Part shown: one piece after another, positions 1,926 to 61,456 of the stretch
Position numbering within the stretch: the stretch's first letter is position 1
Layout: every line of letters begins with the position of its first letter
NCBI RefSeq assembly: GCF_009914755.1
Contig: NC_060932.1
Direction: 5' to 3' (one strand)
Length of the DNA stretch: 64,000 nucleotides
Source: the human T2T-CHM13v2.0 reference genome, Homo sapiens
Program-made: the position numbers and the translations under genes
The notes under the pieces: model-generated
Databases searched by the model: none
Seen by the model: only the letters and a program-made list of their open reading frames with translations
Told to the model about the DNA's origin: nothing

Positions 1926-3485
1926 TCCAAGGGCTTGAACATATCTTGACTTGTTGGCAATCCAAATCGTTACGTCTCCGAAACAGAGTTGACTGAGGGG
2001 ACCGCAGGGCTGGGCAGGACCTTTGACTTCCTATACATCCACAGGAGCAAGAAAACCTCAGCCCCACTCTACCAACACGCACCTAGTAAAATTCCGCCAA
2101 CCGAATCTCACGCACGCTAACACGTGGGGAGCGTTGCTTGCACCACGAGTCTCCATTTGGCTCAACCGCCGATGCCAAGTGTGTGGTTCCAGTTGCGACG
2201 GCCCCCCGTGAAGTGGCTTCCGGATGTGCGAAGGAACCAGGCAGAGTTTCACTGGCCAAATAGACCCCAGCAAAGCTGAAGTTAACTCCCACATTTGGGA
2301 TGTACTTCAGAGGTAAAACATTCATCCCGTCTTCTTTCCGGATGTCTGACACCATGGTTCTCCCCCTGATCCTAAGAGTAGCTGAGGCAGAGACTCACTG
2401 AAAGATCTAGGCGGGGATATCCCATCATGCACAGGCTCTCTCCATTCTCTGACCTGGGAACAACTCTCAGCAGGATTCCACATCTAGGAGGCCTCAGAAC
2501 TCAGCGGGATTTTCTGAGACACACCAACTGGCTGCTCCCTTTCCGCCGCTGTTGAGGGTCGTTATCTTGATTATCCAGATCAACTAGAAAGTATCCGTAT
2601 CCAGAATGAATAAGATCAACTCTCTGCTCCTCTGACAGCAGAAGGAGCAGGACCATAAGGAACCAAAGAGCGTGGAAGGAAACGATGTGACAGGAAAGCT
2701 CAGAGAACGGCCACAGGGGGTCGTCAGCAGGCCTTCCAACCTGAATCATGAATAACTAATGAAGCGCAAATCAAAGGGGACTCGAGTTTCAGCAGGAGCA
2801 ATTCATCCAACGGGAGATCGCCGGAGGGCCAACAAGATTGAGAGACTGGGAGCCGGGTGCAGTGTCAAAGGGGACGCGACTGGTTCCAAAGCTCGAGAAG
2901 ACCATGGGGTCACTTGGGCTACATGAGAAAACGCCCCAGTGTGCTGGTTCATCATTCCGACTCCTGCCTGTCTCTTCCCGTCCAAGGAACATGGACCCTA
3001 AGTCGTGCAGGTGCGGATGACCATGGGCAGAACTAGGGGCCGTGGCACAAAAGTTCACCGACACGGGAGTTCCACAGAAGGTGCGGTGGATCTTCGCAAA
3101 TCCAGAGACATGGCAATGGGACCCAGGGAATTACAGCCTCACAGGCGTCCGGGAGACTTTTCAGGCATAATGCCTGGAGTCGCAAGACGAGCTGAAAAAG
3201 GAGCCAGGCACTGAAGGACAAAGCGTTGTTGACTTTCCTCATCTGTGTTTCCCAGTGCGGTCCAATTCACGGTGGTTTCCAAGCGCCTCCTGGGGGAGAA
3301 AACACATGAGGGTGCGGTCAGGGTTCTCTGCTGACAGACTTACCTTGGGGAAGAAAGAGAAGCTCTGAAGATGGATCATGGCCGTGACTGCATGTCAAGG
3401 AGAGTCTCCTTGATGACACTGAGGCCTACGTCGAGATAGACAAAATGTGGTCCAATTAAAAGGTGTCTATTTTACCACATTTTTT

Positions 3486-3673: not shown

Positions 3674-3762
3674 TAATTGGATTAAGTTAATTGCAATTAA
3701 GGTACAGGTAACTGATTAGGTTAGGGTACGTTCCATGTCAGGTGACCAGAGGCAGTATAAAA
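3674..3762 (+). promoter_or_regulatory. Putative FAM90A promoter, copy 1: TAAT-N3-ATTA, TTAATTGCAATTAA palindrome, DUX4-type motif, TATAAAA
   Basis: TAATTGGATTA 3674-3684; TTAATTGCAATTAA 3687-3700; TGATTAGGTTA (reverse complement TAACCTAATCA) 3713-3723; TATAAAA 3756-3762, followed by a pyrimidine-rich stretch about 25-30 nt downstream. Confidence 0.7.
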
Positions 3763-4914
3763 GGCAGCCTGGAAAGCAGAGGTCCCTCTCTGCCCCTTCC
3801 TCCGTCGTCCTGGATGCTGCATCGCTTCCAGCCGGGCTGCTGCAGCACCTGCCCATCTCAGCGCCAGCCTGGGAAAGAAAGTAGACGTGTAATTTCAGGT
3901 TAGTTTCGCTGAACAATTGATTGTTTCACGCAATCCCTGAGGGGGTTTTGCGGGGGGTGTGGGGGAGAAAGAGACAAAGGAGGCCGAAAGAAACCGATCA
4001 CACTGGGGCTTGCTGGTGGGGTAGGATGTGTTCTCGTTACTAGTAATTCTTGGAACAGAAAACGAGAAAACATATCCGTCTCCACGTGTGGGAGAAGACC
4101 AAGATGGGAATGGGAAAAGAAATGTACTGCAGCATGCTGAATTGGTGGGTAAATGGAAAAAGGACTTTGGAAAAAAGGGGGGTTTGCCCTTCAGCCGTGT
4201 AAGACGTCGATACGATACGGCACTTCTTCCCCGTTTGTTCAGATGAATTCGTGTGGTGTGCGTAAAATACCAGGAAAATAAATAAAGAGGGGCTGGAGCT
4301 AAAGCCAAAAGATAGAACAGGAAAGATCATCACCTGCTAGTGCGGTAGAGAGGAAGGTAACTTCTCTGTATGAATTTGTGTTTGGAAGTTACCTAATGAA
4401 ATGGCAAGAGTAGCGATTCAAGTTGTCACAGGAAGCATCCCTTATCCGTGACGTCAAGCAGACCTGCCAAAGGGTGGCACACGCCATGCCCTGTGTCTTC
4501 GATCATTCTGTCCGTCAAGGGAGATAGAATCACCGTGTCTTCTACCGGAGTGAATCGTGAGAGACCTAAGTCCAGTCTCCAGAATCAGTTGTTTGTTTGG
4601 GGTTGAAATCTCAACCCCCCATACCTAGGCCACGGGCCCTGTGGCAGGTGGGATTTACTCTTGGACTAGGTAGTCATGGCAGAGGAACACACAATATCCG
4701 AGGATGCGCACAGCACATTGTGTTCTACAGATTTGACCGACTGGTGGTGAGGTCTCCTCATGACCACACAGGCAGGGAGTTAGCAGGTGGCTTCCTGTGG
4801 GTGTGTGAATATCCAACGTGCTTAACCATCGACATGTGTGTGTTTGTGTGTGTTTCAGGTGGCTCAAGAGTCCACCCCTGAAAAAGGCGGTCATAAAACC
4901 CCCAGGAGACGAAG

Positions 4915-7900
4915 ATGATGGCACGTCGGGACCCCAAATCTTGGGCCAAGAGACTGGTGAGAGCCCAGACCCTCCAGAAGCAGCGGAGGGCCCCAGTTGG
5001 GCCAAGGGCTCCCCCGCCCGATGAAGAAGATCCCAGGGTAAGTCTAGCCCTGGATCTCTTGGGTATCGGGGTGGGGGTGGGGACGGGGGGAGGGGGTGTC
5101 CCACGGTCCTCAGAGACTGGGTTGGATTCCAAAGAGTTCTGTCACCACCAGCCAGGTTGCTTTTCCCATCCAAGGTGGGCGTGGCTTGGGACCTTCTCCC
5201 CGGCCCGATAGGTCCCTTGAGAGACTCTTGGGGGCAACCTCCCTTTCTACTTCGAGTCCTGTATAGCCACGTTTGGCTGCGTTGTTGACATCGGCTTCAC
5301 CATCGTGCCCCTTGGAACCTTGAGTCCTTCCTTTCAGAGTTCCTCCGTCCCGTGGGCTTTGCGAGGGAACATCGTATCCGAACTCTCCCGGCACTTAACG
5401 GCCCCCATGCCGGTGTCCCCTCTTTGGAATCCTTATTCAGCTCTGAATTCACAATCCGTCCCAATGTTGACGTGGGATCGCTGCCTGTGGCTTCAGCTCA
5501 CTCACTGACATCACTTCCTTTCCACCCACAGCTCAAGTGCAAAAACTGCGGGGCCTTTGGCCACACGGCCAGAAGTACCAGGTGCCCCATGAAGTGCTGG
5601 AAGGCAGCCCTGGTTCCAGCGACCTTGGGGAAAAAGGAAGGGAAGGAAAACCTGAAACCATGGAAGCCCCGGGGTGAAGCCAACCCGGGGCCCTTGAACA
5701 AGGATAAGGGAGAGAAGGAAGAGAGACCAAGGTGAGCAGTGGGAGGGGTTTTCACCACTCTTAGGGTACTGCCTCCTAAGGACATGGTGTCTCTGCACCT
5801 GCACACCGTGTGCCTTTCCGTCTCCGGGCCAGGGAAGGAACGCTGCAGAGAAATAGGCTGGAGCTCCGTGTCCTCCGGGGTTCCACACCCAGGAGCTCCT
5901 TGGGCTCTGGGAGATTCAGGGACGGGGAGAGGCGGGGGCGCTTCGTGCAGGTTCCCCACGACAGCGGGAAAAGCGATGGAATCCAAATCACAGTCCTTAG
6001 TTGGGAAGCCTAGAGGGCCACCTGGAGGATGGGAAGGTTGGCACGTGAGGGAAGGTGCAGAGGCGGAAAGGGCACCAGATGTCCATTTCTGTATCACAAA
6101 ACACGGAATGGGGCTGGGCCCCAGACGGGGTTCTCCCTGTCTCCTGGGGAAAACCAGGGGGCACGGCCTGACCTTCTTCTGTTCTGCAGGCAACAAGACC
6201 CGCAGAGGAAGGCTCTCCTCCACATGTTTTCCGGGAAACCTCCAGAGAAGCCGCTGCCGAATGGAAAAGGATCCACGGAATCTTCTGATTATCTGAGGGC
6301 GAGTGTCACCCCGGGCCCCTGGTCTTTTTCTCCTCTAGGTCACCCTGGTTGATTTCCTTTCAGCTTCCCGTCTGCGGGAGGAAATCGGGGAACCCCTCTT
6401 TCTTGCCTTCTTGGGGTCAGGGACTCCACGATCCTTCCAGGTCAATTGGATTCCAGGTGAAGGCATCTGAACATGCCGTATTTCCTGTTGCTTTCTTTCT
6501 GTCCAATTATGGCAAGCCTGCCAACAACACGTTCCTAGCGGCATGAGGAAATTAGTCCCTCAGAGGCCCCAAACGTGGAGAAGGCGAAACCCAGAAACAT
6601 GCATGTGTTCAGAGAAGACGTCCCGAGTACCCTTGAGCCAGCAACCTGCCTTAGGAAGGGCATTAGTCCGTTCCACTTCATGGAAGGCTGAGTGGAGGCG
6701 CTTTGATCCAGTTAATGCCCAAGACGCGATCTTTTGAACAATGGTGTGCTTAGATCAGCTACACATAGCTCGAGAGCGCATCTTTCATGTGTCTTGTCCT
6801 GATCAGCACTCAGGTGGAGGGTCTGTCCCTACTTCCAAGGACCGCCTGTCGATACTGTACTAAGAATTTCATGGCGTGTGCACCTTGTCTTTGGATGTGC
6901 TTGATTTTCACGTTGGCTCCATGCTGAGGAACTTCTAACCTGTGTTGTTTCCTCTCTTTCAGGTTGCAAGCGGGCCAATGCCGGTCCACACAACCAGTAA
7001 GAGGCCGCGCTTGGACCCTATCCTCGCTGATCGCTCAGCTACCGCAATGTCTGGCAGGGGCTCCGTCTTGGCTTCACTGTCTCCCCTCAGAAAAGCCAGC
7101 CTGAGCTCCTCCTCAAGTCTTGGACCAAAGGAAAGACAGACAGGGGCTGCGGCCGACATGCCTCAGCCTGCAGTCAGGCACCAGGGCCGCGAGCCTCTCC
7201 TCGTGGTGAAGCCGACACACAGCCGCCCCGAGGGTGGCTGCCGAGAAGTTCCCCAGGCTGCCTCCAAAACCCACGGACTGCCCCAGGCCGCCAGACCCCA
7301 GGCACAAGACAAACGTCCTGCGGTGACCTCACTGCCCTGCCCGCCAGCCGCCACACACAGCTTGGGCCTAGGCTCCAATCTCAGCTTCGGGCCAGGAGCC
7401 AAGAGACCTGCCCAGGCTCCGATTCAGGCTTGCCTGAACTTCCCCAAGAAACCGAGACTGGGTCCCTTCCAGATCCCCGAAAGCGCCATCCAGGGAGGTG
7501 AGCTGGGGGCCCCGGAGAATCTCCAACCTCCGCCAGCCGCAACCGAACTTGGACCAAGTACGTCGCCCCAGATGGGCAGGAGGACACCGGCCCAGGTGCC
7601 CAGCGTCGACCGGCAGCCTCCGCACAGCACACCTTGCCTGCCTACTGCCCAGGCCTGCACCATGTCCCATCACTCAGCGGCCAGCCATGATGGGGCCCAG
7701 CCTCTCAGAGTGCTCTTCCGGAGACTGGAAAACGGACGCTGGAGCTCCAGCCTCCTGGCGGCCCCCTCATTTCACTCTCCTGAGAAGCCGGGAGCCTTCC
7801 TCGCTCAGAGTCCTCATGTGTCAGAGAAGTCTGAGGCTCCCTGTGTTCGTGTCCCACCGAGCGTCCTCTATGAGGACCTTCAGGTTTCCTCCTCCTCAGA

Positions 7901-7925
7901 GGACAGCGATTCTGACCTGGAGTGA
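4915..7925 (+). CDS. FAM90A: FAM90A family protein, copy 1, 464 aa; exons 4915-5037, 5532-5731, 6190-6298, 6963-7925
   Basis: MMARRDPKSWAKRLVRAQ...DPR | LKCKNCGAFGHTARSTRCP...ERPR | QQDPQRK...DYLR | VASGPMPVH...DSDLE*. Donors are GTAAGT, GTGAGC and GCGAGT; acceptors are pyrimidine tracts ending CAG. The 1,395 nt stay in frame and match the recalled FAM90A sequence and CCHC knuckle. Confidence 0.95.
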
Positions 7926-8539: not shown

Positions 8540-9573
8540 TGAAGGGGTGGCCTGCCCCTCCACACCTGTGGGTGATTCTAGTCGGGTGGGATGAGAGACG
8601 GAGAAAAGAAATAAGACACAGAGACAAAGTATAGGGAGACAACAGTGGGTCCATGGGACCGGCACTCAGCACACCTAGGACCTGCACCGGCACCGGCCTC
8701 TGAGTTCCCTCAGTTTTTATTGATTATGATTTTCATTATTTCAGCACAAAGGAATGCAGTAGGGGAGCAGGGTGATAATAAGGGTAAGGTCAACAACAAC
8801 AACAACAAAACAAAAACGTGAGCAAAAGAATCCATATCATTATTAAGTTCAAGGGAAGGTACTATGCCTGGACGTGCACGTAGGCCAGATTTATGTTTCT
8901 CTCCACACAAATATCTCAGCGGAGTAAAGAATAACAAGGCAGCATTACTGCCAACATGTCTCGCCTCCCGCCACAGGGCAGCTTTTCTCCGAGCTCAGAG
9001 TTGAACAAATGAACGATCGGGCTTTACACCGAGACATTGAGTTCCCAGGGGCAAGCAGGAGACAGTGGCCTTCCTCCATCTGAACTGCAAGAGGCTTTCC
9101 TCTTTGACTAATCCACCTCAGCACAGACCCATTGCGGGTGTCAGGCTGGGGGACAGTCAGGTCTTTCCCATCCCACGAGGCCACATTTCAGACTGACACA
9201 TGGGGAGAAACCTTGGACAATACCCTGCTTTCAAGGGCAGAGGTCCCTGTGGCTTTCCACGGTGCATTGCACCCGTGGTTTATTGAGACTGGAGAATGGC
9301 AATGACTTCTACCAAGTATACTGCTCGTAAACATTTGGTTAACAAGGCGCGTCCTGCACAGCCCTAGATCCCTTAAACCTCGATTTTATACAACACAGGT
9401 TTTGGTGAGCTCCAAGTTGGGTCAAAGGAAGGGGCTGCGGCAAAGCTACAAATGATCAACATCTCAGCAAAGCAATGGTTTAAACTACAGGTCTTTTTCA
9501 AAATGGAGTCTCTTGTGTCTTCCCCTTCTACATAGACACAGTGGCAGTCTGATCTCTCTTTCTTTACCCTACA
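8540..9573 (-). mobile_element. LTR5A-like solo LTR, TSD TCCAAG
   Basis: Same termini and TSD as 892-1925. Confidence 0.92.
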
Positions 9574-11316: not shown

Positions 11317-11405
11317 TAATTGGATTAAGTTAATTGCAATTAAGGTACAGGTAACTGATTAGGTTAGGGTACGTTCCATGTCAGGTGACCAGAGGCAGTA
11401 TGAAA
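11317..11405 (+). promoter_or_regulatory. Putative promoter, copy 2: DUX4-type motif at 11356; TATA variant TATGAAA
   Basis: Homeodomain motifs intact; TATGAAA at 11399-11405. Confidence 0.65.
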
Positions 11406-18963: not shown

Positions 18964-19052
18964 TAATTGGATTAAGTTAATTGCAATTAAGGTACAGGTA
19001 ACTGATTAGGTTAGGGTACGTTCCATGTCAGGTGACCAGAGGCAGTATAAAA
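18964..19052 (+). promoter_or_regulatory. Putative promoter, copy 3: DUX4-type motif at 19003; TATAAAA
   Basis: TATAAAA at 19046-19052. Confidence 0.7.
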
Positions 19053-26611: not shown

Positions 26612-26700
26612 TAATTGGATTAAGTTAATTGCAATTAAGGTACAGGTAACTGATTAGGTTAGGGTACGTTCCATGTCAGGTGACCAGAGGCAGTATAAAA
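26612..26700 (+). promoter_or_regulatory. Putative promoter, copy 4: DUX4-type motif at 26651; TATAAAA
   Basis: TATAAAA at 26694-26700. Confidence 0.7.
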
Positions 26701-34259: not shown

Positions 34260-34348
34260 TAATTGGATTAAGTTAATTGCAATTAAGGTACAGGTAACTG
34301 ATTAGGTTAGGGTACGTTCCATGTCAGGTGACCAGAGGCAGTATAAAA
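34260..34348 (+). promoter_or_regulatory. Putative promoter, copy 5: DUX4-type motif at 34299; TATAAAA
   Basis: TATAAAA at 34342-34348. Confidence 0.7.
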
Positions 34349-41907: not shown

Positions 41908-41996
41908 TAATTGGATTAAGTTAATTGCAATTAAGGTACAGGTAACTGATTAGGTTAGGGTACGTTCCATGTCAGGTGACCAGAGGCAGTATGAAA
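41908..41996 (+). promoter_or_regulatory. Putative promoter, copy 6: DUX4-type motif at 41947; TATA variant TATGAAA
   Basis: TATGAAA at 41990-41996. Confidence 0.65.
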
Positions 41997-49555: not shown

Positions 49556-49644
49556 TAATTGGATTAAGTTAATTGCAATTAAGGTACAGGTAACTGATTA
49601 GGTTAGGGTACGTTCCATGTCAGGTGACCAGAGGCAGTATGAAA
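49556..49644 (+). promoter_or_regulatory. Putative promoter, copy 7: DUX4-type motif at 49595; TATA variant TATGAAA
   Basis: TATGAAA at 49638-49644. Confidence 0.65.
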
Positions 49645-50797: not shown

Positions 50798-53700
50798 ATG
50801 ATGGCACGTCGGGACCCCAAATCTTGGGCCAAGAGACTGGTGAGAGCCCAGACCCTCCAGAAGCAGCAGAGGGCCCCAGTTGGGCGAAGGGCTCCCCCGC
50901 CCGATGAAGAAGATCCCAGGGTAAGTGTAGCCCTGGATCTCTTGGGTATCGGGGTGGGGGTGGGGACGGGGGGAGGGGGTGTCCCACGGTCCTCAGAGAC
51001 TGGGTTGGATTCCAAAGAGTTCTGTCACCACCAGCCAGGTTGCTTTTCCCATCCAAGGTGGGCGTGGCTTGGGACCTTCTCCCCGGCCCGATAGGTCCCT
51101 TGAGAGACTCTTGGGGGCAACCTCCCTTTCTACTTAGAGTCCTGTGTAGCCACGTTTGGCTGCGTTGTTGACATCGGCTTCACCATGGTGCCCCTTGGAA
51201 CCTTGAGTCCTTCCTTTCAGAGTTCCTCCGTCACATGGGCTTTGCGAGGGAACATCGCATCCGAACTCTCCCAGCACTTAACGGCCCCCATGCCGGTGTC
51301 CCCTCTTTGGAATCCTTATTCAGCTCTGAATTCACAATCCGTCCCAATGTTGACGTGGGATCGCTGCCTGTGGCTTCAGCTCACTCACTGACATCACTTC
51401 CTTTCCACCCGCAGCTCAAGTGCAAAAACTGCGGGGCCTTTGGCCACACGGCCAGAAGTACCAGGTGCCCCATGAAGTGCTGGAAGGCAGCCCTGGTTCC
51501 AGCGACCTTGGGGAAAAAGGAAGGGAAGGAAAACCTGAAACCATGGAAGCCCCGGGGTGAAGCCAACCCGGGGCCCTTGAACAAGGATAAGGGAGAGAAG
51601 GAAGAGAGACCAAGGTGAGCAGTGGGAGGGGTTTTCACCACTCTTAGGGTACGGCCTCCCAAGGACATGGTGTCTCTGCACCTGCACACCGTGTGCCTTT
51701 CCGTCTCCGGGCCAGGGAAGGAACGCTGCAGAGAAATAGGCCGGAGCTCCGTGTCCTCCGGGGTTCCACACCCAGGAGCTCCTTGGGCTCTGGGAGATTC
51801 AGGGACGGGGAGAGGCGGGGGCGCTTCGTGCAGGTTCCCCACGACAGCGGGAAAAGCGATGGAATCCAAATCACAGTCCTTAGTTGGGAAGCCTAGAGGG
51901 CCACCTGGAGGATGGGAAGGTTGGCACGTGAGGGAAGGTGCAGAGGCGGAAAGGGCACCAGATGTCCATTTCTGTATCACAAAACACGGAATGGGGCTGG
52001 GCCCCAGACGGGGTTCTCCCTGTCTCCTGGGGAAAACCAGGGGGCACGGCCTGACCTTCTTCTGTTCTGCAGGCAACAAGACCCGCAGAGGAAGGCTCTC
52101 CTCCACATGTTTTCCGGGAAACCTCCAGAGAAGCCGCTGCCGAATGGAAAAGGATCCACGGAATCTTCTGATTATCTGAGGGCGAGTGTCACCCCGGGCC
52201 CCTGGTCTTTTTCTCCTCTAGGTCACCCTGGTTGATTTCCTTTCAGCTTCCCGTCTGCGGGAGGAAATCGGGGAACCCCTCTTTCTTGCCTTCTTGGGGT
52301 CAGGGACTCCACGATCCTTCCAGGTCAATTGGATTCCAGGCGAAGGCATCTGAACATGCCGTATTTCCTGTTGCTTTCTTTCTGTCCAATTATGGCAAGC
52401 CTGCCAACAACACGTTCCTAGCGGCATGAGGAAATTAGTCCCTCAGAGGCCCCAAACGTGGAGAAGGCGAAACCCAGGAACATGCATGTGTTCAGAGAAG
52501 ACGTCCCGAGTACCCTTGAGCCAGCAACCTGCCTTGGGAAGGGCATTAGTCCGTTCCACTTCATGGAAGGCTGAGTGGAGGCGCTTTGATCCAGTTAATG
52601 CCCAAGACGCGATCTTTTGAACAATGGTGTGCTTAGATCAGCTACACATAGCTCGAGAGCGCATCTTTCATGTGTCTTGTCCTGATCAGCACTCAGGTGG
52701 AGGGTCTGTCCCTACTTCCAAGGACCGCCTGTCGATACTGTACTAAGAATTTCATGGCGTGTGCACCTTGTCTTTGGATGTGCTTGATTTTCACGTTGGC
52801 TCCATGCTGAGGAACTTCTAACCTGTGTTGTTTCCTCTCTTTCAGGTTGCAAGCGGGCCAATGCCGGTCCACACAACCAGTAAGAGGCCGCGCTTGGACC
52901 CTGTCCTCGCTGATCGCTCAGCTACCGCAATGTCTGGCAGGGGCACCGTCTTGGCTTCACTGTCTCCCCTCAGAAAAGCCAGCCTGAGCTCCTCCTCAAG
53001 TCTTGGACCAAAGGAAAGACAGACAGGGGCTGCGGCCGACATGCCTCAGCCTGCAGTCAGGCACCAGGGCCGCGAGCCTCTCCTCGTGGTGAAGCCGACA
53101 CACAGCCGCCCCGAGGGTGGCTGCCGAGAAGTTCCCCAGGCTGCCTCCAAAACCCACGGCCTGCTCCAGGCCGCCAGACCCCAGGCACAAGACAAACGTC
53201 CTGCGGTGACCTCACAGCCCTGCCCGCCAGCCGCCACACACAGCTTGGGCCTAGGCTCCAATCTCAGCTTCGGGCCAGGAGCCAAGAGACCTGCCCAGGC
53301 TCCGATTCAGGCTTGCCTGAACTTCCCCAAGAAACCGAGACTGGGTCCCTTCCAGATCCCCGAAAGCGCCATCCAGGGAGGTGAGCTGGGGGCCCCGGAG
53401 AATCTCCAACCTCCGCCAGCCGCAACCGAACTTGGACCAAGTACGTCGCCCCAGATGGGCAGGAGGACACCGGCCCAGGTGCCCAGCGTCGACCGGCAGC
53501 CTCCGCACAGCAGACCTTGCCTGCCTACTGCCCAGGCCTGCACCATGTCCCATCACTCAGCGGCCAGCCATGATGGGGCCCAGCCTCTCAGAGTGCTCTT
53601 CCGGAGACTGGAAAACGGACGCTGGAGCTCCAGCCTCCTGGCGGCCCCCTCATTTCACTCTCCTGAGAAGCCGGGAGCCTTCCTCGCTCAGAGCCCTCAT

Positions 53701-53808
53701 GTGTCAGAGAAGTCTGAGGCTCCCTGTGTTCGTGTCCCACCGAGCGTCCTCTATGAGGACCTTCAGGTTTCCTCCTCCTCAGAGGACAGCGATTTTGACC
53801 TGGAGTGA
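50798..53808 (+). CDS. FAM90A: FAM90A family protein, copy 7, 464 aa; exons 50798-50920, 51415-51614, 52073-52181, 52846-53808
   Basis: Intact; carries Q24, R30 and R367, plus private T178 and F461. Confidence 0.95.
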
Positions 53809-57203: not shown

Positions 57204-57292
57204 TAATTGGATTAAGTTAATTGCAATTAAGGTACAGGTAACTGATTAGGTTAGGGTACGTTCCATGTCAGGTGACCAGAGGCAGTATGAAA
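57204..57292 (+). promoter_or_regulatory. Putative promoter, copy 8: DUX4-type motif at 57243; TATA variant TATGAAA
   Basis: TATGAAA at 57286-57292. Confidence 0.65.
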
Positions 57293-58445: not shown

Positions 58446-61400
58446 ATGATGGCACGTCGGGACCCCAAATCTTGGGCCAAGAGACTGGTGAGAGCCCAGA
58501 CCCTCCAGAAGCAGCAGAGGGCCCCAGTTGGGCGAAGGGCTCCCCCGCCCGATGAAGAAGATCCCAGGGTAAGTGTAGCCCTGGATCTCTTGGGTATCGG
58601 GGTGGGGGTGGGGACGGGGGGAGGGGGTGTCCCACGGTCCTCAGAGACTGGGTTGGATTCCAAAGAGTTCTGTCACCACCAGCCAGGTTGCTTTTCCCAT
58701 CCAAGGTGGGCGTGGCTTGGGACCTTCTCCCCGGCCCGATAGGTCCCTTGAGAGACTCTTGGGGGCAACCTCCCTTTCTACTTAGAGTCCTGTGTAGCCA
58801 CGTTTGGCTGCGTTGTTGACATCGGCTTCACCATCGTGCCCCTTGGAACCTTGAGTCCTTCCTTTCAGAGTTCCTCCGTCACATGGGCTTTGCGAGGGAA
58901 CATCGCATCCGAACTCTCCCAGCACTTAACGGCCCCCATGCCGGTGTCCCCTCTTTGGAATCCTTATTCAGCTCTGAATTCACAATCCGTCCCAATGTTG
59001 ACGTGGGATCGCTGCCTGTGGCTTCAGCTCACTCACTGACATCACTTCCTTTCCACCCGCAGCTCAAGTGCAAAAACTGCGGGGCCTTTGGCCACACGGC
59101 CAGAAGTACCAGGTGCCCCATGAAGTGCTGGAAGGCAGCCCTGGTTCCAGCGACCTTGGGGAAAAAGGAAGGGAAGGAAAACCTGAAACCATGGAAGCCC
59201 CGGGGTGAAGCCAACCCGGGGCCCTTGAACAAGGATAAGGGAGAGAAGGAAGAGAGACCAAGGTGAGCAGTGGGAGGGGTTTTCACCACTCTTAGGGTAC
59301 GGCCTCCCAAGGACATGGTGTCTCTGCACCTGCACACCGTGTGCCTTTCCGTCTCCGGGCCAGGGAAGGAACGCTGCAGAGAAATAGGCCGGAGCTCCGT
59401 GTCCTCCGGGGTTCCACACCCAGGAGCTCCTTGGGCTCTGGGAGATTCAGGGACGGGGAGAGGCGGGGGCGCTTCGTGCAGGTTCCCCACGACAGCGGGA
59501 AAAGCGATGGAATCCAAATCACAGTCCTTAGTTGGGAAGCCTAGAGGGCCACCTGGAGGATGGGAAGGTTGGCACGTGAGGGAAGGTGCAGAGGCGGAAA
59601 GGGCACCAGATGTCCATTTCTGTATCACAAAACACGGAATGGGGCTGGGCCCCAGACGGGGTTCTCCCTGTCTCCTGGGGAAAACCAGGGGGCACGGCCT
59701 GACCTTCTTCTGTTCTGCAGGCAACAAGACCCGCAGAGGAAGGCTCTCCTCCACATGTTTTCCGGGAAACCTCCAGAGAAGCCGCTGCCGAATGGAAAAG
59801 GATCCACGGAATCTTCTGATTATCTGAGGGCGAGTGTCACCCCGGGCCCCTGGTCTTTTTCTCCTCTAGGTCACCCTGGTTGATTTCCTTTCAGCTTCCC
59901 GTCTGCGGGAGGAAATCGGGGAACCCCTCTTTCTTGCCTTCTTGGGGTCAGGGACTCCACGATCCTTCCAGGTCAATTGGATTCCAGGCGAAGGCATCTG
60001 AACATGCCGTATTTCCTGTTGCTTTCTTTCTGTCCAATTATGGCAAGCCTGCCAACAACACGTTCCTAGCGGCATGAGGAAATTAGTCCCTCAGAGGCCC
60101 CAAACGTGGAGAAGGCGAAACCCAGGAACATGCATGTGTTCAGAGAAGACGTCCCGAGTACCCTTGAGCCAGCAACCTGCCTTGGGAAGGGCATTAGTCC
60201 GTTCCACTTCATGGAAGGCTGAGTGGAGGCGCTTTGATCCAGTTAATGCCCAAGACGCGATCTTTTGAACAATGGTGTGCTTAGATCAGCTACACATAGC
60301 TCGAGAGCGCATCTTTCATGTGTCTTGTCCTGATCAGCACTCAGGTGGAGGGTCTGTCCCTACTTCCAAGGACCGCCTGTCGATACTGTACTAAGAATTT
60401 CATGGCGTGTGCACCTTGTCTTTGGATGTGCTTGATTTTCACGTTGGCTCCATGCTGAGGAACTTCTAACCTGTGTTGTTTCCTCTCTTTCAGGTTGCAA
60501 GCGGGCCAATGCCGGTCCACACAACCAGTAAGAGGCCGCGCTTGGACCCTGTCCTCGCTGATCGCTCAGCTACCGCAATGTCTGGCAGGGGCTCCGTCTT
60601 GGCTTCACTGTCTCCCCTCAGAAAAGCCAGCCTGAGCTCCTCCTCAAGTCTTGGACCAAAGGAAAGACAGACAGGGGCTGCGGCCGACATGCCTCAGCCT
60701 GCAGTCAGGCACCAGGGCCGCGAGCCTCTCCTCGTGGTGAAGCCGACACACAGCCGCCCCGAGGGTGGCTGCCGAGAAGTTCCCCAGGCTGCCTCCAAAA
60801 CCCACGGACTGCCCCAGGCCGCCAGACCCCAGGCACAAGACAAACGTCCTGCGGTGACCTCACTGCCCTGCCCGCCAGCCGCCACACACAGCTTGGGCCT
60901 AGGCTCCAATCTCAGCTTCGGGCCAGGAGCCAAGAGACCTGCCCAGGCTCCGATTCAGGCTTGCCTGAACTTCCCCAAGAAACCGAGACTGGGTCCCTTC
61001 CAGATCCCCGAAAGCGCCATCCAGGGAGGTGAGCTGGGGGCCCCGGAGAATCTCCAACCTCCGCCAGCCGCAACCGAACTTGGACCAAGTACGTCGCCCC
61101 AGATGGGCAGGAGGACACCGGCCCAGGTGCCCAGCGTCGACCGGCAGCCTCCGCACAGCACACCTTGCCTGCCTACTGCCCAGGCCTGCACCATGTCCCA
61201 TCACTCAGCGGCCAGCCATGATGGGGCCCAGCCTCTCAGAGTGCTCTTCCGGAGACTGGAAAACGGACGCTGGAGCTCCAGCCTCCTGGCGGCCCCCTCA
61301 TTTCACTCTCCTGAGAAGCCGGGAGCCTTCCTCGCTCAGAGTCCTCATGTGTCAGAGAAGTCTGAGGCTCCCTGTGTTCGTGTCCCACCGAGCGTCCTCT

Positions 61401-61456
61401 ATGAGGACCTTCAGGTTTCCTCCTCCTCAGAGGACAGCGATTCTGACCTGGAGTGA
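58446..61456 (+). CDS. FAM90A: FAM90A family protein, copy 8, 464 aa; exons 58446-58568, 59063-59262, 59721-59829, 60494-61456
   Basis: Intact; 5' part resembles copies 6-7 (Q24, R30) and 3' part resembles copy 1 (P251, L268, T367). Confidence 0.95.

What the first reader, a model, noticed from the sequence alone, without database searches (positions are those of the whole stretch)
3674..3762. Each unit has a DUX4 / paired-homeodomain cassette just upstream of a TATA box
Seen within 50 bp: TAAT-TGG-ATTA (a P3 paired-class dimer site containing the K50 site GGATTA), the perfect 14-bp palindrome TTAATTGCAATTAA, and TGATTAGGTTA (= TAACCTAATCA), ending 32 bp before the TATA box. These motifs are invariant in all 8 copies. 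Established: TAAYYBAATCA is the DUX4 consensus, and K50 PRD-like factors (OTX/CRX/LEUTX type) bind TAATCC. I recall FAM90A genes among DUX4-induced transcripts, which should be verified. Inference: the array is a battery of cleavage-stage switches whose output scales with copy number, and so a possible dosage modifier of embryonic genome activation and FSHD.
Basis: partly seen in the sequence, partly recalled or inferred. Interest (0 to 1): 0.75.

Follow-up and report, generated by a model that had tools for sequence, protein, structure and literature searches.

The report
DUX4-type promoter of FAM90A repeats
Each 7.6-kb FAM90A repeat carries a perfect binding site for the embryonic activator DUX4 just upstream of its only TATA box, which probably explains the already published induction of FAM90A genes by DUX4; binding and the transcription start are still untested.

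Summary
The 50-bp homeodomain-site cluster occurs 8 times in the window with no mismatch. Within one unit it is far denser than chance. It includes the unit's only DUX4 consensus, an exact copy of a published DUX4 ChIP-seq consensus, 32 bp before the unit's only sense-strand TATA box.

Two corrections. Invariance among the 8 copies says nothing, because the units are 98.9-99.95% identical. The TATA box reads TATGAAA in 4 of 8 units.

New here:
- The module is in 57 loci of this genome, including FAM90A1 on chr12.
- A very diverged chr19 paralogue keeps the same layout of perfect DUX4 site, 33 bp, TATA box, about 136 nt, then a CAG|GTTGGT donor.

DUX4 occupancy and the start site remain untested. 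The array cannot be mapped with short reads. The annotated FAM90A1 span implies an upstream start. The K50/paired-factor and dosage-modifier ideas have no support yet.

Verdict: a likely direct DUX4-responsive promoter, a new member of a known kind.

The parts
3674..3684 (.). TAATTGGATTA, which fits the paired-class P3 pattern TAATYNRATTA. One half is GGATTA (K50 type). On the minus strand it reads TAATCCAATTA, the third-best score for the DUX4 matrix in the unit.
3679..3689 (-). DUX-like site. The minus strand reads TAACTTAATCC, 10 of 11 consensus positions. It is the second-best DUX4-matrix score in the unit (11.6 against a maximum of 20.6) and overlaps the P3 site and the palindrome.
3687..3700 (.). 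Perfect 14-bp palindrome TTAATTGCAATTAA. It is perfect in 56 of 57 genomic copies; FAM90A1 on chr12 has TTAATTGTAATTAA. No factor is assigned.
3713..3723 (-). Perfect DUX4 site. The minus strand reads TAACCTAATCA, the maximum score of the Eidahl 2016 matrix. It is the only DUX4 consensus in the unit and is identical in 57 of 57 FAM90A promoter copies of the genome.
3756..3762 (+). TATA box TATAAAA, the only sense-strand TATAWAW in the unit. It reads TATGAAA in 4 of 8 window units and in 9 of 57 genomic copies.
3786..3898 (+). Putative non-coding exon 1 (inferred). The start is placed about 30 nt after the TATA box. The end is at the donor CAG|GTTAGT (GTTGGT in units 3-8). It holds an upstream ATG at 3814 that opens a 35-codon upstream ORF.
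   Evidence: The same donor is kept in the 4 paralogues of about 94% identity and in the chr19 copies.
3899..4858 (+). Putative intron 1 (inferred), ending in the acceptor ...GTGTTTCAG|G.
4859..5037 (+). Putative exon 2 with the start codon at 4915. It is the first coding exon of an intact 464-aa FAM90A reading frame that is not in the supplied gene table.
11317..11405 (+). Cassette of unit 2 (TATGAAA variant).
18964..19052 (+). Cassette of unit 3 (TATAAAA).
26612..26700 (+). Cassette of unit 4 (TATAAAA).
34260..34348 (+). Cassette of unit 5 (TATAAAA).
41908..41996 (+). Cassette of unit 6 (TATGAAA variant).
49556..49644 (+). Cassette of unit 7 (TATGAAA variant).
57204..57292 (+). Cassette of unit 8 (TATGAAA variant).

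Best explanation
The 89-bp stretch is the DUX4-responsive core promoter of each FAM90A repeat unit.

Proposed mechanism:
1. DUX4 binds the perfect site at 3713-3723. Its second homeodomain sits on the distal TGAT half and its first on the TATA-proximal TAAC half.
2. The DUX4 C-terminal activation domain recruits p300/CBP. This is established knowledge that I recall; it was not tested here.
3. A pre-initiation complex forms on the TATA box 32 bp downstream.
4. Transcription starts about 30 nt further on. A non-coding first exon of about 110 nt is spliced from the donor at 3898|3899 to 4859, and the start codon follows at 4915.

The upstream P3-like site and palindrome are probably auxiliary homeodomain sites, either weak DUX-type sites or sites for DUX4-induced paired-like factors.

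Shown: the motifs, their rarity, their presence in 57 loci, the published induction of family members, and the recurrence of the layout in a deep paralogue. Inferred: binding at this site, the start site, the splice, and any role of the upstream sites.
For: 1. The site is the maximum-scoring 11-mer of a published DUX4 ChIP-seq matrix. The three best matrix scores of the 7.6-kb unit all lie within 3674-3723. The exact 11-mer occurs 89 times as a matched sequence in that study's peak tables.
2. It is the unit's only DUX4 consensus (0.016 expected) and lies 32 bp upstream of the unit's only sense-strand TATAWAW, 1.16 kb before the start codon.
3. Family members are induced by DUX4 in two independent data sets, already at 12 h, and FAM90A1 is not among the DUX4c-induced genes. 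A FAM90A1 probe is listed with the value 128 among genes higher in day-3 embryos than in trophectoderm.
4. FAM90A1 on chr12 (36.8x induced) and three chr8 singletons, about 94% identical to unit 1 over the promoter region, keep the P3 site, the DUX4 11-mer, TATAAAA and the donor.
5. One chr19 paralogue (locus L058), whose exons are only 70-87% identical and whose non-coding DNA does not align by blastn, has the same perfect 11-mer. It lies 33 bp before TATAAAT, with a CAG|GTTGGT donor 136 nt after the TATA start (143 nt in the array) and two more DUX-type 11-mers just upstream. The local alignment has z=4.3, with 2 of 300 shuffles as good. The chr19 gene FAM90A27P is the strongest responder (178x) and the only family member listed for mouse Dux.
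6. The same 11-mer, in the same orientation and 25-40 bp (about 36 bp in the listed copies) before TATRAAA (mostly TATAAAA), recurs in about 100 dispersed repeat copies: 157 matches against 9 for the control, 57 of them FAM90A. DUX4-bound LTRs of the MaLR class are documented promoters that donate a first exon (PMC3836709).
Against: 1. No ChIP evidence. No FAM90A gene appears in Eidahl's table of genes that are both bound and induced. About half of the 36-mers around the FAM90A1 site are unique, so a strong peak there could have been called.
2. The start site is not shown. FAM90A1's annotated span of 6444 bp, anchored on either polyadenylation signal, puts its annotated start 1.2-1.7 kb upstream of the cassette. 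The supplied RefSeq models of the array hold coding parts only.
3. The putative exon 1 carries an upstream ATG. The donor is weaker (GTTGGT) in 6 of 8 units, and the TATA box is degenerate in 4 of 8.
4. Array members have few reads (at most 45 per sample) against 255-476 for FAM90A1. This could be multi-mapping loss or a genuinely weak array.
5. Conservation tests lack power. Among the paralogues of about 94% identity, 1 variable column falls in the 43 motif columns against 2.65-3.64 expected (P=0.12-0.24). Outside the functional elements, chr19 similarity is marginal: exon-1 body z=2.5 for one copy and 0.4 for the other; spacer and upstream not significant.
6. No FAM90A entry is in the embryo 5'-end data of Tohonen 2015. 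In Vuoristo 2022 there are only near-zero FAM90A1 counts.
Confidence: 0.58

Rival explanations
1. DUX4 binds the site, but the stretch acts as a proximal or intronic enhancer, not as the core promoter. Transcripts would start elsewhere: upstream, as the annotated FAM90A1 span implies, or nearer to exon 2.
For: FAM90A1's span of 6444 bp places its annotated start 1.2-1.7 kb upstream of the cassette. The RefSeq models of the array carry no untranslated exons. There is an upstream ATG in the putative exon 1. There is no initiator-like CA at the expected distance (my reading).
Against: This is the only sense-strand TATA box of the unit. A donor 131-143 nt downstream of the TATA box is kept across chr8, chr12 and chr19 paralogues. 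The supplied gene table has a pseudogene model starting 1038 bp before the FAM90A17 start codon, which by my arithmetic is 21 nt before this donor. In the array, the sequence 0.5 kb upstream of the cassette is the 3' end of the previous unit.
Confidence: 0.2
2. The induction by DUX4 is indirect or shared. The cassette would mainly be read by DUX4-induced or maternal paired-like homeodomain factors (LEUTX, TPRX, DUXA, OTX2 or PITX type) through the P3/K50 site and the palindrome, and the DUX4 11-mer would be dispensable.
For: The P3 pattern is expected only 0.006 times per unit and is kept in 57 of 57 copies. It contains a GGATTA half. LEUTX is itself induced by DUX4. No FAM90A gene is in the bound-and-induced table.
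Against: FAM90A1 is already up at 12 h, together with classic direct targets. The chr19 promoter keeps the DUX4 11-mer but has TGAT-type sites, not a P3 site, upstream. No FAM90A gene is in the target lists of nine paired-like factors, though that method may also miss multi-copy genes.
Confidence: 0.12
3. The module is an old LTR promoter taken over by the gene: a dispersed repeat that carries the same 11-mer and TATA spacing. I recall the repeat as a MaLR MLT1-type LTR, but no tool named it.
For: There are 157 genomic matches to TGATTAGGTTA-N25-40-TATRAAA against 9 for the control. Of the first 20 non-chr8 matches, 19 belong to one repeat family with the same orientation and 36-bp spacing. 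DUX4-bound MaLR LTRs act as promoters.
Against: Pairwise alignments of the FAM90A flanks with those 20 copies, outside the seeded motifs, give mean z of 0.28 downstream and 0.15 upstream. Only 2 of 20 (downstream) and 1 of 20 (upstream) reach 2 or fewer of 100 shuffles. The bases next to the 11-mer differ. I built no profile or consensus of the repeat, so the test is not sensitive.
Confidence: 0.07
4. The cluster is a chance, non-functional run of AT-rich homeodomain-like words, copied along with the unit.
For: All copies descend from one sequence, so there is only one independent observation within chr8/chr12. Invariance is uninformative, and the paralogue test is not significant.
Against: Cluster P=0.002; DUX4 consensus expected 0.016 and P3 0.006 per unit. 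It sits next to the only TATA box. The layout recurs on chr19. The family is DUX4-induced.
Confidence: 0.03

Closest known systems
DUX4-bound MaLR/ERVL LTRs that act as alternative promoters (Young et al. 2013, PMC3836709; passages read)
   Same: A DUX4 site close to a TATA-type promoter that donates a short non-coding first exon, spliced to a downstream coding exon. The identical 11-mer, orientation and near-identical spacing to TATAAAA occur in about 100 dispersed repeat copies of this genome.
   Different: No sequence homology to those copies is detectable outside the motifs. Here the promoter belongs to the duplicated gene unit itself, is present 57 times at 94-100% identity, and carries two extra homeodomain sites upstream.
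Promoters of classic DUX4 targets such as ZSCAN4 and PRAMEF12 (Eidahl et al. 2016, PMC5409219; legend of supplementary figure 4 read)
   Same: Induced in the same experiments and carry high-scoring DUX4 motifs.
   Different: ZSCAN4 has six motifs and a called ChIP peak. A FAM90A unit has one perfect motif plus two weak ones, and no peak is reported. The array cannot be mapped with reads of up to 150 nt.
Putative promoter of the chr19 FAM90A paralogue (locus L058; one of the two chr19 copies is FAM90A27P)
   Same: Perfect TAACCTAATCA, 33 bp, a TATA box embedded in GCAGTATAAA-G-CAGC (15 of 17 bases identical), then 136 nt to a CAG|GTTGGT donor.
   Different: Its upstream sites are TGAT-type DUX sites rather than a P3 site and a palindrome. 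The rest of the sequence is barely alignable. The sister copy (L059) has all three sites damaged.
High-copy tandem gene arrays such as D4Z4/DUX4 and DUB/USP17 (bioRxiv 10.1101/2024.09.26.615256, passage read)
   Same: FAM90A is named there with these two as one of three families with more than 50 paralogues. It is copy-number variable and lies at 8p23.1.
   Different: FAM90A is a target of DUX4, not its source. Whether array length affects chromatin state or output is unknown.

Membership tests
Direct DUX4 target promoter | High-scoring match to the DUX4 double-homeodomain motif near the start site | tested here: met
   3713-3723 equals the ChIP-derived consensus and scores the matrix maximum of 20.6.
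Direct DUX4 target promoter | Transcript induced when DUX4 is expressed | tested here: met
   From print, not from my own data: FAM90A1, FAM90A27P and six chr8 copies are induced 3.2-178x; FAM90A1 5.5x and 11.8x. Individual units of this window cannot be told apart.
Direct DUX4 target promoter | DUX4 occupancy in cells (ChIP or CUT&Tag) | tested here: inconclusive
   No FAM90A gene is in the bound-and-induced table. In the array, 0 of 251-365 k-mers (36-150 nt) around the site are unique. At FAM90A1, 183 of 365 36-mers are unique.
Direct DUX4 target promoter | Induced transcripts start just downstream of the site, and the response is lost when the site is mutated | not testable with these tools
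   Needs 5' RACE or CAGE and a reporter assay. The annotated FAM90A1 span points to an upstream start.
TATA-box core promoter | TATAWAW about 25-35 nt upstream of the start site | tested here: inconclusive
   TATAAAA in 4 of 8 units here and, by subtracting the 9 TATGAAA copies, 48 of 57 genome-wide; TATGAAA in the rest. The start site is unknown.
Paired-class P3 dimer site | Palindromic TAAT-N3-ATTA fitting TAATYNRATTA (pattern recalled, Wilson et al.) | tested here: met
   TAATTGGATTA at 3674-3684; expected 0.006 per unit.
Paired-class P3 dimer site | Cooperative binding by a paired-like homeodomain dimer | not testable with these tools
   No binding data. No FAM90A gene in the target lists of nine paired-like factors. 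The site can also be read as overlapping weak DUX-type sites.
LTR-derived (MaLR) DUX4 promoter | Sequence homology to the LTR family beyond the motif | tested here: not met
   Mean z of 0.28 and 0.15 against 20 dispersed copies. This was a pairwise test only; no profile was built and no repeat library is on hand.

The most novel reading that the evidence does not exclude
The 57 near-identical FAM90A promoters per haploid genome, each with a perfect DUX4 site, would act as a copy-number-variable amplifier. A pulse of DUX4 at embryonic genome activation, or in muscle of facioscapulohumeral dystrophy (FSHD), would switch on a battery of genes. These genes encode a protein that activates transcription when tethered and binds BRD2/3/4 (bioRxiv 10.1101/2021.07.30.454360). 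Array length and the TATAAAA/TATGAAA ratio would then set the dose and modify the strength of the DUX4 programme between individuals. The module would be old and selected, since a chr19 paralogue keeps only the DUX4 site, the TATA box and the donor.
Probability: 0.12. Interest if true: 0.75.

Novelty: new member of a known kind. Interest (0 to 1): 0.4.

Why it matters
FAM90A is one of three human gene families with more than 50 paralogues, is copy-number variable, and has had almost no functional study. Its induction by DUX4 sits in supplementary tables, but I found no description of how it comes about. Five full-text searches found none: FAM90A with DUX4, 'genome activation', ZSCAN4 or embryo, and FAM90A alone. 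Supplements of papers I did not open, and papers that are not held, were not covered.

A single perfect DUX4 site beside the unit's only TATA box gives a simple, testable cause. It also shows why standard ChIP-seq would have missed it: no read of up to 150 nt around the site is unique within the window. With a complete genome the array can now be measured. The TATGAAA variant, in 9 of 57 copies, is a natural promoter mutant.

The wider claim, dose-dependent modification of genome activation or FSHD, would matter if true but has no evidence. FAM90A sites make up only 58 of 2052 perfect sites in the genome, so a role as a DUX4 'sink' is unlikely.

Tried and rejected
1. LTR origin. I compared the FAM90A flanks with 20 dispersed copies of the repeat that shares the 11-mer and TATA spacing. 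No similarity appeared beyond the motifs. Kept only as a minor rival.
2. I guessed that the first dispersed hit (chr1:42.14 Mb) was the published MLT1B-PPCS promoter. The 10 kb downstream that I scanned for reading frames (a second 10 kb was fetched but not scanned) holds a forkhead-domain exon (FOXJ3, by my recognition of the peptide), not PPCS. Dropped.
3. Conservation as evidence. The 8 copies and the paralogues of about 94% identity are too similar to show constraint.
4. Start site from annotated spans. The 5231-5233-bp pseudogene spans and the 6444-bp FAM90A1 span of Eidahl's table do not end on both a polyadenylation signal and the predicted start. No conclusion.
5. Retrocopies that would preserve the spliced 5' end. 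A 28-mer from the end of exon 1, with up to 3 mismatches, hits only the same 57 loci.
6. A 29-of-32 match to the P3 site and palindrome on chr2 (two duplicated places). No flanking homology. Left unexplained.
7. Supplements without any FAM90A entry: Tohonen 2015, Young 2013 (12 of 19 files searched) and Madissoon 2016. Vuoristo 2022 has only near-zero FAM90A1 counts.
8. Not held, so not seen: Geng 2012, Hendrickson 2017 and Bosch 2007. Their tables may hold ChIP peaks, embryo expression or the 5' UTR structure that bear directly on this finding.

Full report
**What is in the sequence**

At 3674-3762 the plus strand holds four elements:
- TAATTGGATTA at 3674-3684.
- The perfect palindrome TTAATTGCAATTAA at 3687-3700.
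- TGATTAGGTTA at 3713-3723, which reads TAACCTAATCA on the minus strand.
- TATAAAA at 3756-3762, after a further 32 bases.

The 50-mer that spans the three homeodomain motifs occurs 8 times in the window without a mismatch, once per 7.6-kb unit. The DUX4 consensus has exactly these 8 matches.

**Is it more than chance?**

The units are 98.9-99.95% identical. Only 137 of 7653 alignment columns vary, and 30% of all 89-column windows are invariant. So the 8 copies count as one observation, and their invariance says nothing about constraint.

I therefore judged one unit against 1000 dinucleotide shuffles:
- 5 of its 28 TAAT/ATTA cores fall in 50 bp (P=0.002).
- The DUX4 consensus is expected 0.016 times.
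- The P3 pattern is expected 0.006 times.
- The unit also has a single sense-strand TATAWAW, the one 32 bp downstream of the DUX4 site.

**How good is the DUX4 site?**

Eidahl et al. 2016 (PMC5409219) give TAACCTAATCA as the MEME consensus of their top 1000 DUX4 ChIP-seq peaks. I took their frequency matrix from supplementary table 2 and scanned a unit with it.
- 3713-3723 scores the matrix maximum, 20.6.
- The next two best sites also lie in the cassette: 3679-3689 (TAACTTAATCC, 11.6) and 3674-3684 (TAATCCAATTA, 9.6).
- The fourth best site scores 7.3.

The exact 11-mer appears 89 times as a matched sequence in that study's peak tables.

**Is the family DUX4-responsive?**

Yes, and this is already in print.
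- Dmitriev et al. 2016 (PMC5323140, section 5 read) list FAM90A1 at 5.5x 12 h and 11.8x 24 h after DUX4 transfection. It carries no asterisk for DUX4c and is flagged as a previously described target.
- Eidahl's RNA-seq table lists FAM90A27P at 178x, FAM90A1 at 36.8x, and six chr8 copies at 3.2-19.8x.
- Their table 7E repeats a 'Fam90 family' block from Geng 2012.
- Assou et al. 2012 (PMC3382239) list a FAM90A1 probe with the value 128 among genes higher in day-3 embryos than in trophectoderm.

**Spread in the genome**

The window's own genome could be searched. A 28-mer around the DUX4 site, with up to 3 mismatches, hits 57 loci:
- 53 exact copies in four chr8 blocks of 4, 10, 28 and 11 units.
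- Three chr8 singletons.
- chr12:8.24 Mb, which is FAM90A1.

The 11-mer is identical in all 57. The P3 site is identical in 57 of 57, and the palindrome is perfect in 56 of 57. TATGAAA occurs in 9 of 57 copies, all in the 11.7-11.9 Mb block.

The four non-array copies are about 94% identical to unit 1 over the promoter region (about 95% to a whole unit). Their homology starts 505 bp upstream of the cassette. They keep the P3 site, the 11-mer, TATAAAA and the donor GTTAGT. The test has little power: 1 variable column falls in 43 motif columns against 2.65-3.64 expected (P=0.12-0.24).

**A deep paralogue**

An exon-2 pattern found two chr19 copies. Only exon pieces align to the array, at 70-87% identity.

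One copy (L058) nevertheless shows the same layout:
- Two further DUX-type 11-mers, TGATTAGATCA and TGATTGCATCA, just upstream.
- The perfect 11-mer at L058:1375-1385.
- 33 bp later, TATAAAT inside a block that shares 15 of 17 bases with the array.
- A CAG|GTTGGT donor 136 nt after the TATA start, against 143 nt in the array.

The local alignment of array and L058 begins exactly at the 11-mer and has z=4.3, with 2 of 300 shuffles as good. Outside these elements similarity is marginal or absent:
- Exon-1 body: z=2.5 with 5 of 500 shuffles for L058, and z=0.4 with 199 of 500 for L059.
- Spacer and upstream: not significant.

The sister copy L059 has all three sites damaged. Whether this is ancient homology with only the working parts kept, or convergence, it argues that the site-TATA-exon-donor layout is functional. 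FAM90A27P, one of these two copies, is the strongest DUX4 responder and the only family member listed for mouse Dux. I could not settle which copy it is.

**An analogue elsewhere**

The pattern TGATTAGGTTA-N25-40-TATRAAA has 157 genomic matches against 9 for the reversed control. About 100 of them are not FAM90A. Of the first 20 such matches, 19 belong to one dispersed repeat with the same orientation and 36-bp spacing.

I recall this repeat as a MaLR MLT1-type LTR, but no tool named it. Young et al. 2013 show that DUX4-bound MaLR LTRs act as promoters that donate a first exon. Pairwise tests found no homology between FAM90A and these copies beyond the motifs. I therefore treat this as the same working principle, not common descent.

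**What is not shown**

- Binding. No FAM90A gene is in Eidahl's bound-and-induced table. For the array this means little, because 0 of 251-365 k-mers of 36-150 nt around the site are unique within the window, and peak calling on uniquely mapped reads is blind to such repeats (Young 2013). For FAM90A1, about half of the 36-mers are unique, so the absence counts mildly against strong binding.
- The start site. It is inferred only from the TATA box and the conserved donor.
- A conflicting annotation. FAM90A1's annotated span implies a start 1.2-1.7 kb upstream.
- Weak points in the model. The putative exon 1 holds an upstream ATG. Array members show few reads.
I found nothing that supports a role of K50 or paired-like factors or the dosage-modifier idea. 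FAM90A sites are 58 of 2052 perfect sites genome-wide, so a titration effect is unlikely.

**Verdict**

This is a likely direct DUX4-responsive TATA promoter, repeated with the gene. It gives a mechanism for a published but unexplained induction. It is a new member of a known kind, of moderate interest, and easy to test now that the array is fully assembled.

Noticed in passing
window 4915-7925, 50798-53808, 58446-61456: Three units carry intact 464-aa FAM90A reading frames with the same splice sites as the annotated ones, but they are not in the supplied gene table. All 8 units are intact, differing from unit 2 at 0-5 residues.
   Followed up: partly
window 6298/6299 and the same place in every unit: The third coding intron starts with GC, not GT (a GC-AG intron), in 8 of 8 units.
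   Followed up: no
window 3169-3276 (and every 7648 bp); L051: The single-copy paralogues contain one full period plus 108 bp. The segment matching 3169-3276 stands at both ends of the ancestral unit, 7.6 kb apart, and a weaker 72% match extends it. Such a flanking direct repeat could have seeded the tandem array by unequal crossing-over.
   Followed up: no
genome-wide, e.g. L032-L050: About 100 copies of an old dispersed repeat carry the perfect DUX4 11-mer 25-40 bp (about 36 in the listed copies) upstream of TATRAAA (mostly TATAAAA), in one orientation. I recall the family as a MaLR MLT1-type LTR, but no tool named it.
   Followed up: partly
L058:1349-1425 and L059 (reverse strand, about 8830-8905): One chr19 FAM90A paralogue has three DUX-type 11-mers in a row before its TATA box. 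Its inverted sister copy has a base change in two of them and a 10-bp deletion of the third. Their promoter region is 79% identical, while the rest of the two loci is 90-96% identical.
   Followed up: partly
G000 chr2:89071778-89071806 and chr2:90693357-90693385 (L057): A 29-of-32 match to the P3 site and palindrome, with no flanking homology. About 0.002 such matches are expected by my own estimate. Unexplained.
   Followed up: partly
window 3902 and the equivalent place in other units: The putative exon-1 donor is GTTAGT in units 1-2 and in all four paralogues of about 94% identity, but GTTGGT in units 3-8. The weaker form is therefore derived within the array.
   Followed up: no
L051 (chr12:8238260-8238288): In this genome FAM90A1 differs from the array at two bases inside the zinc-knuckle codons matched by the exon-2 pattern (TGTGAG where the array has TGCGGG). 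This would change a glycine.
   Followed up: no
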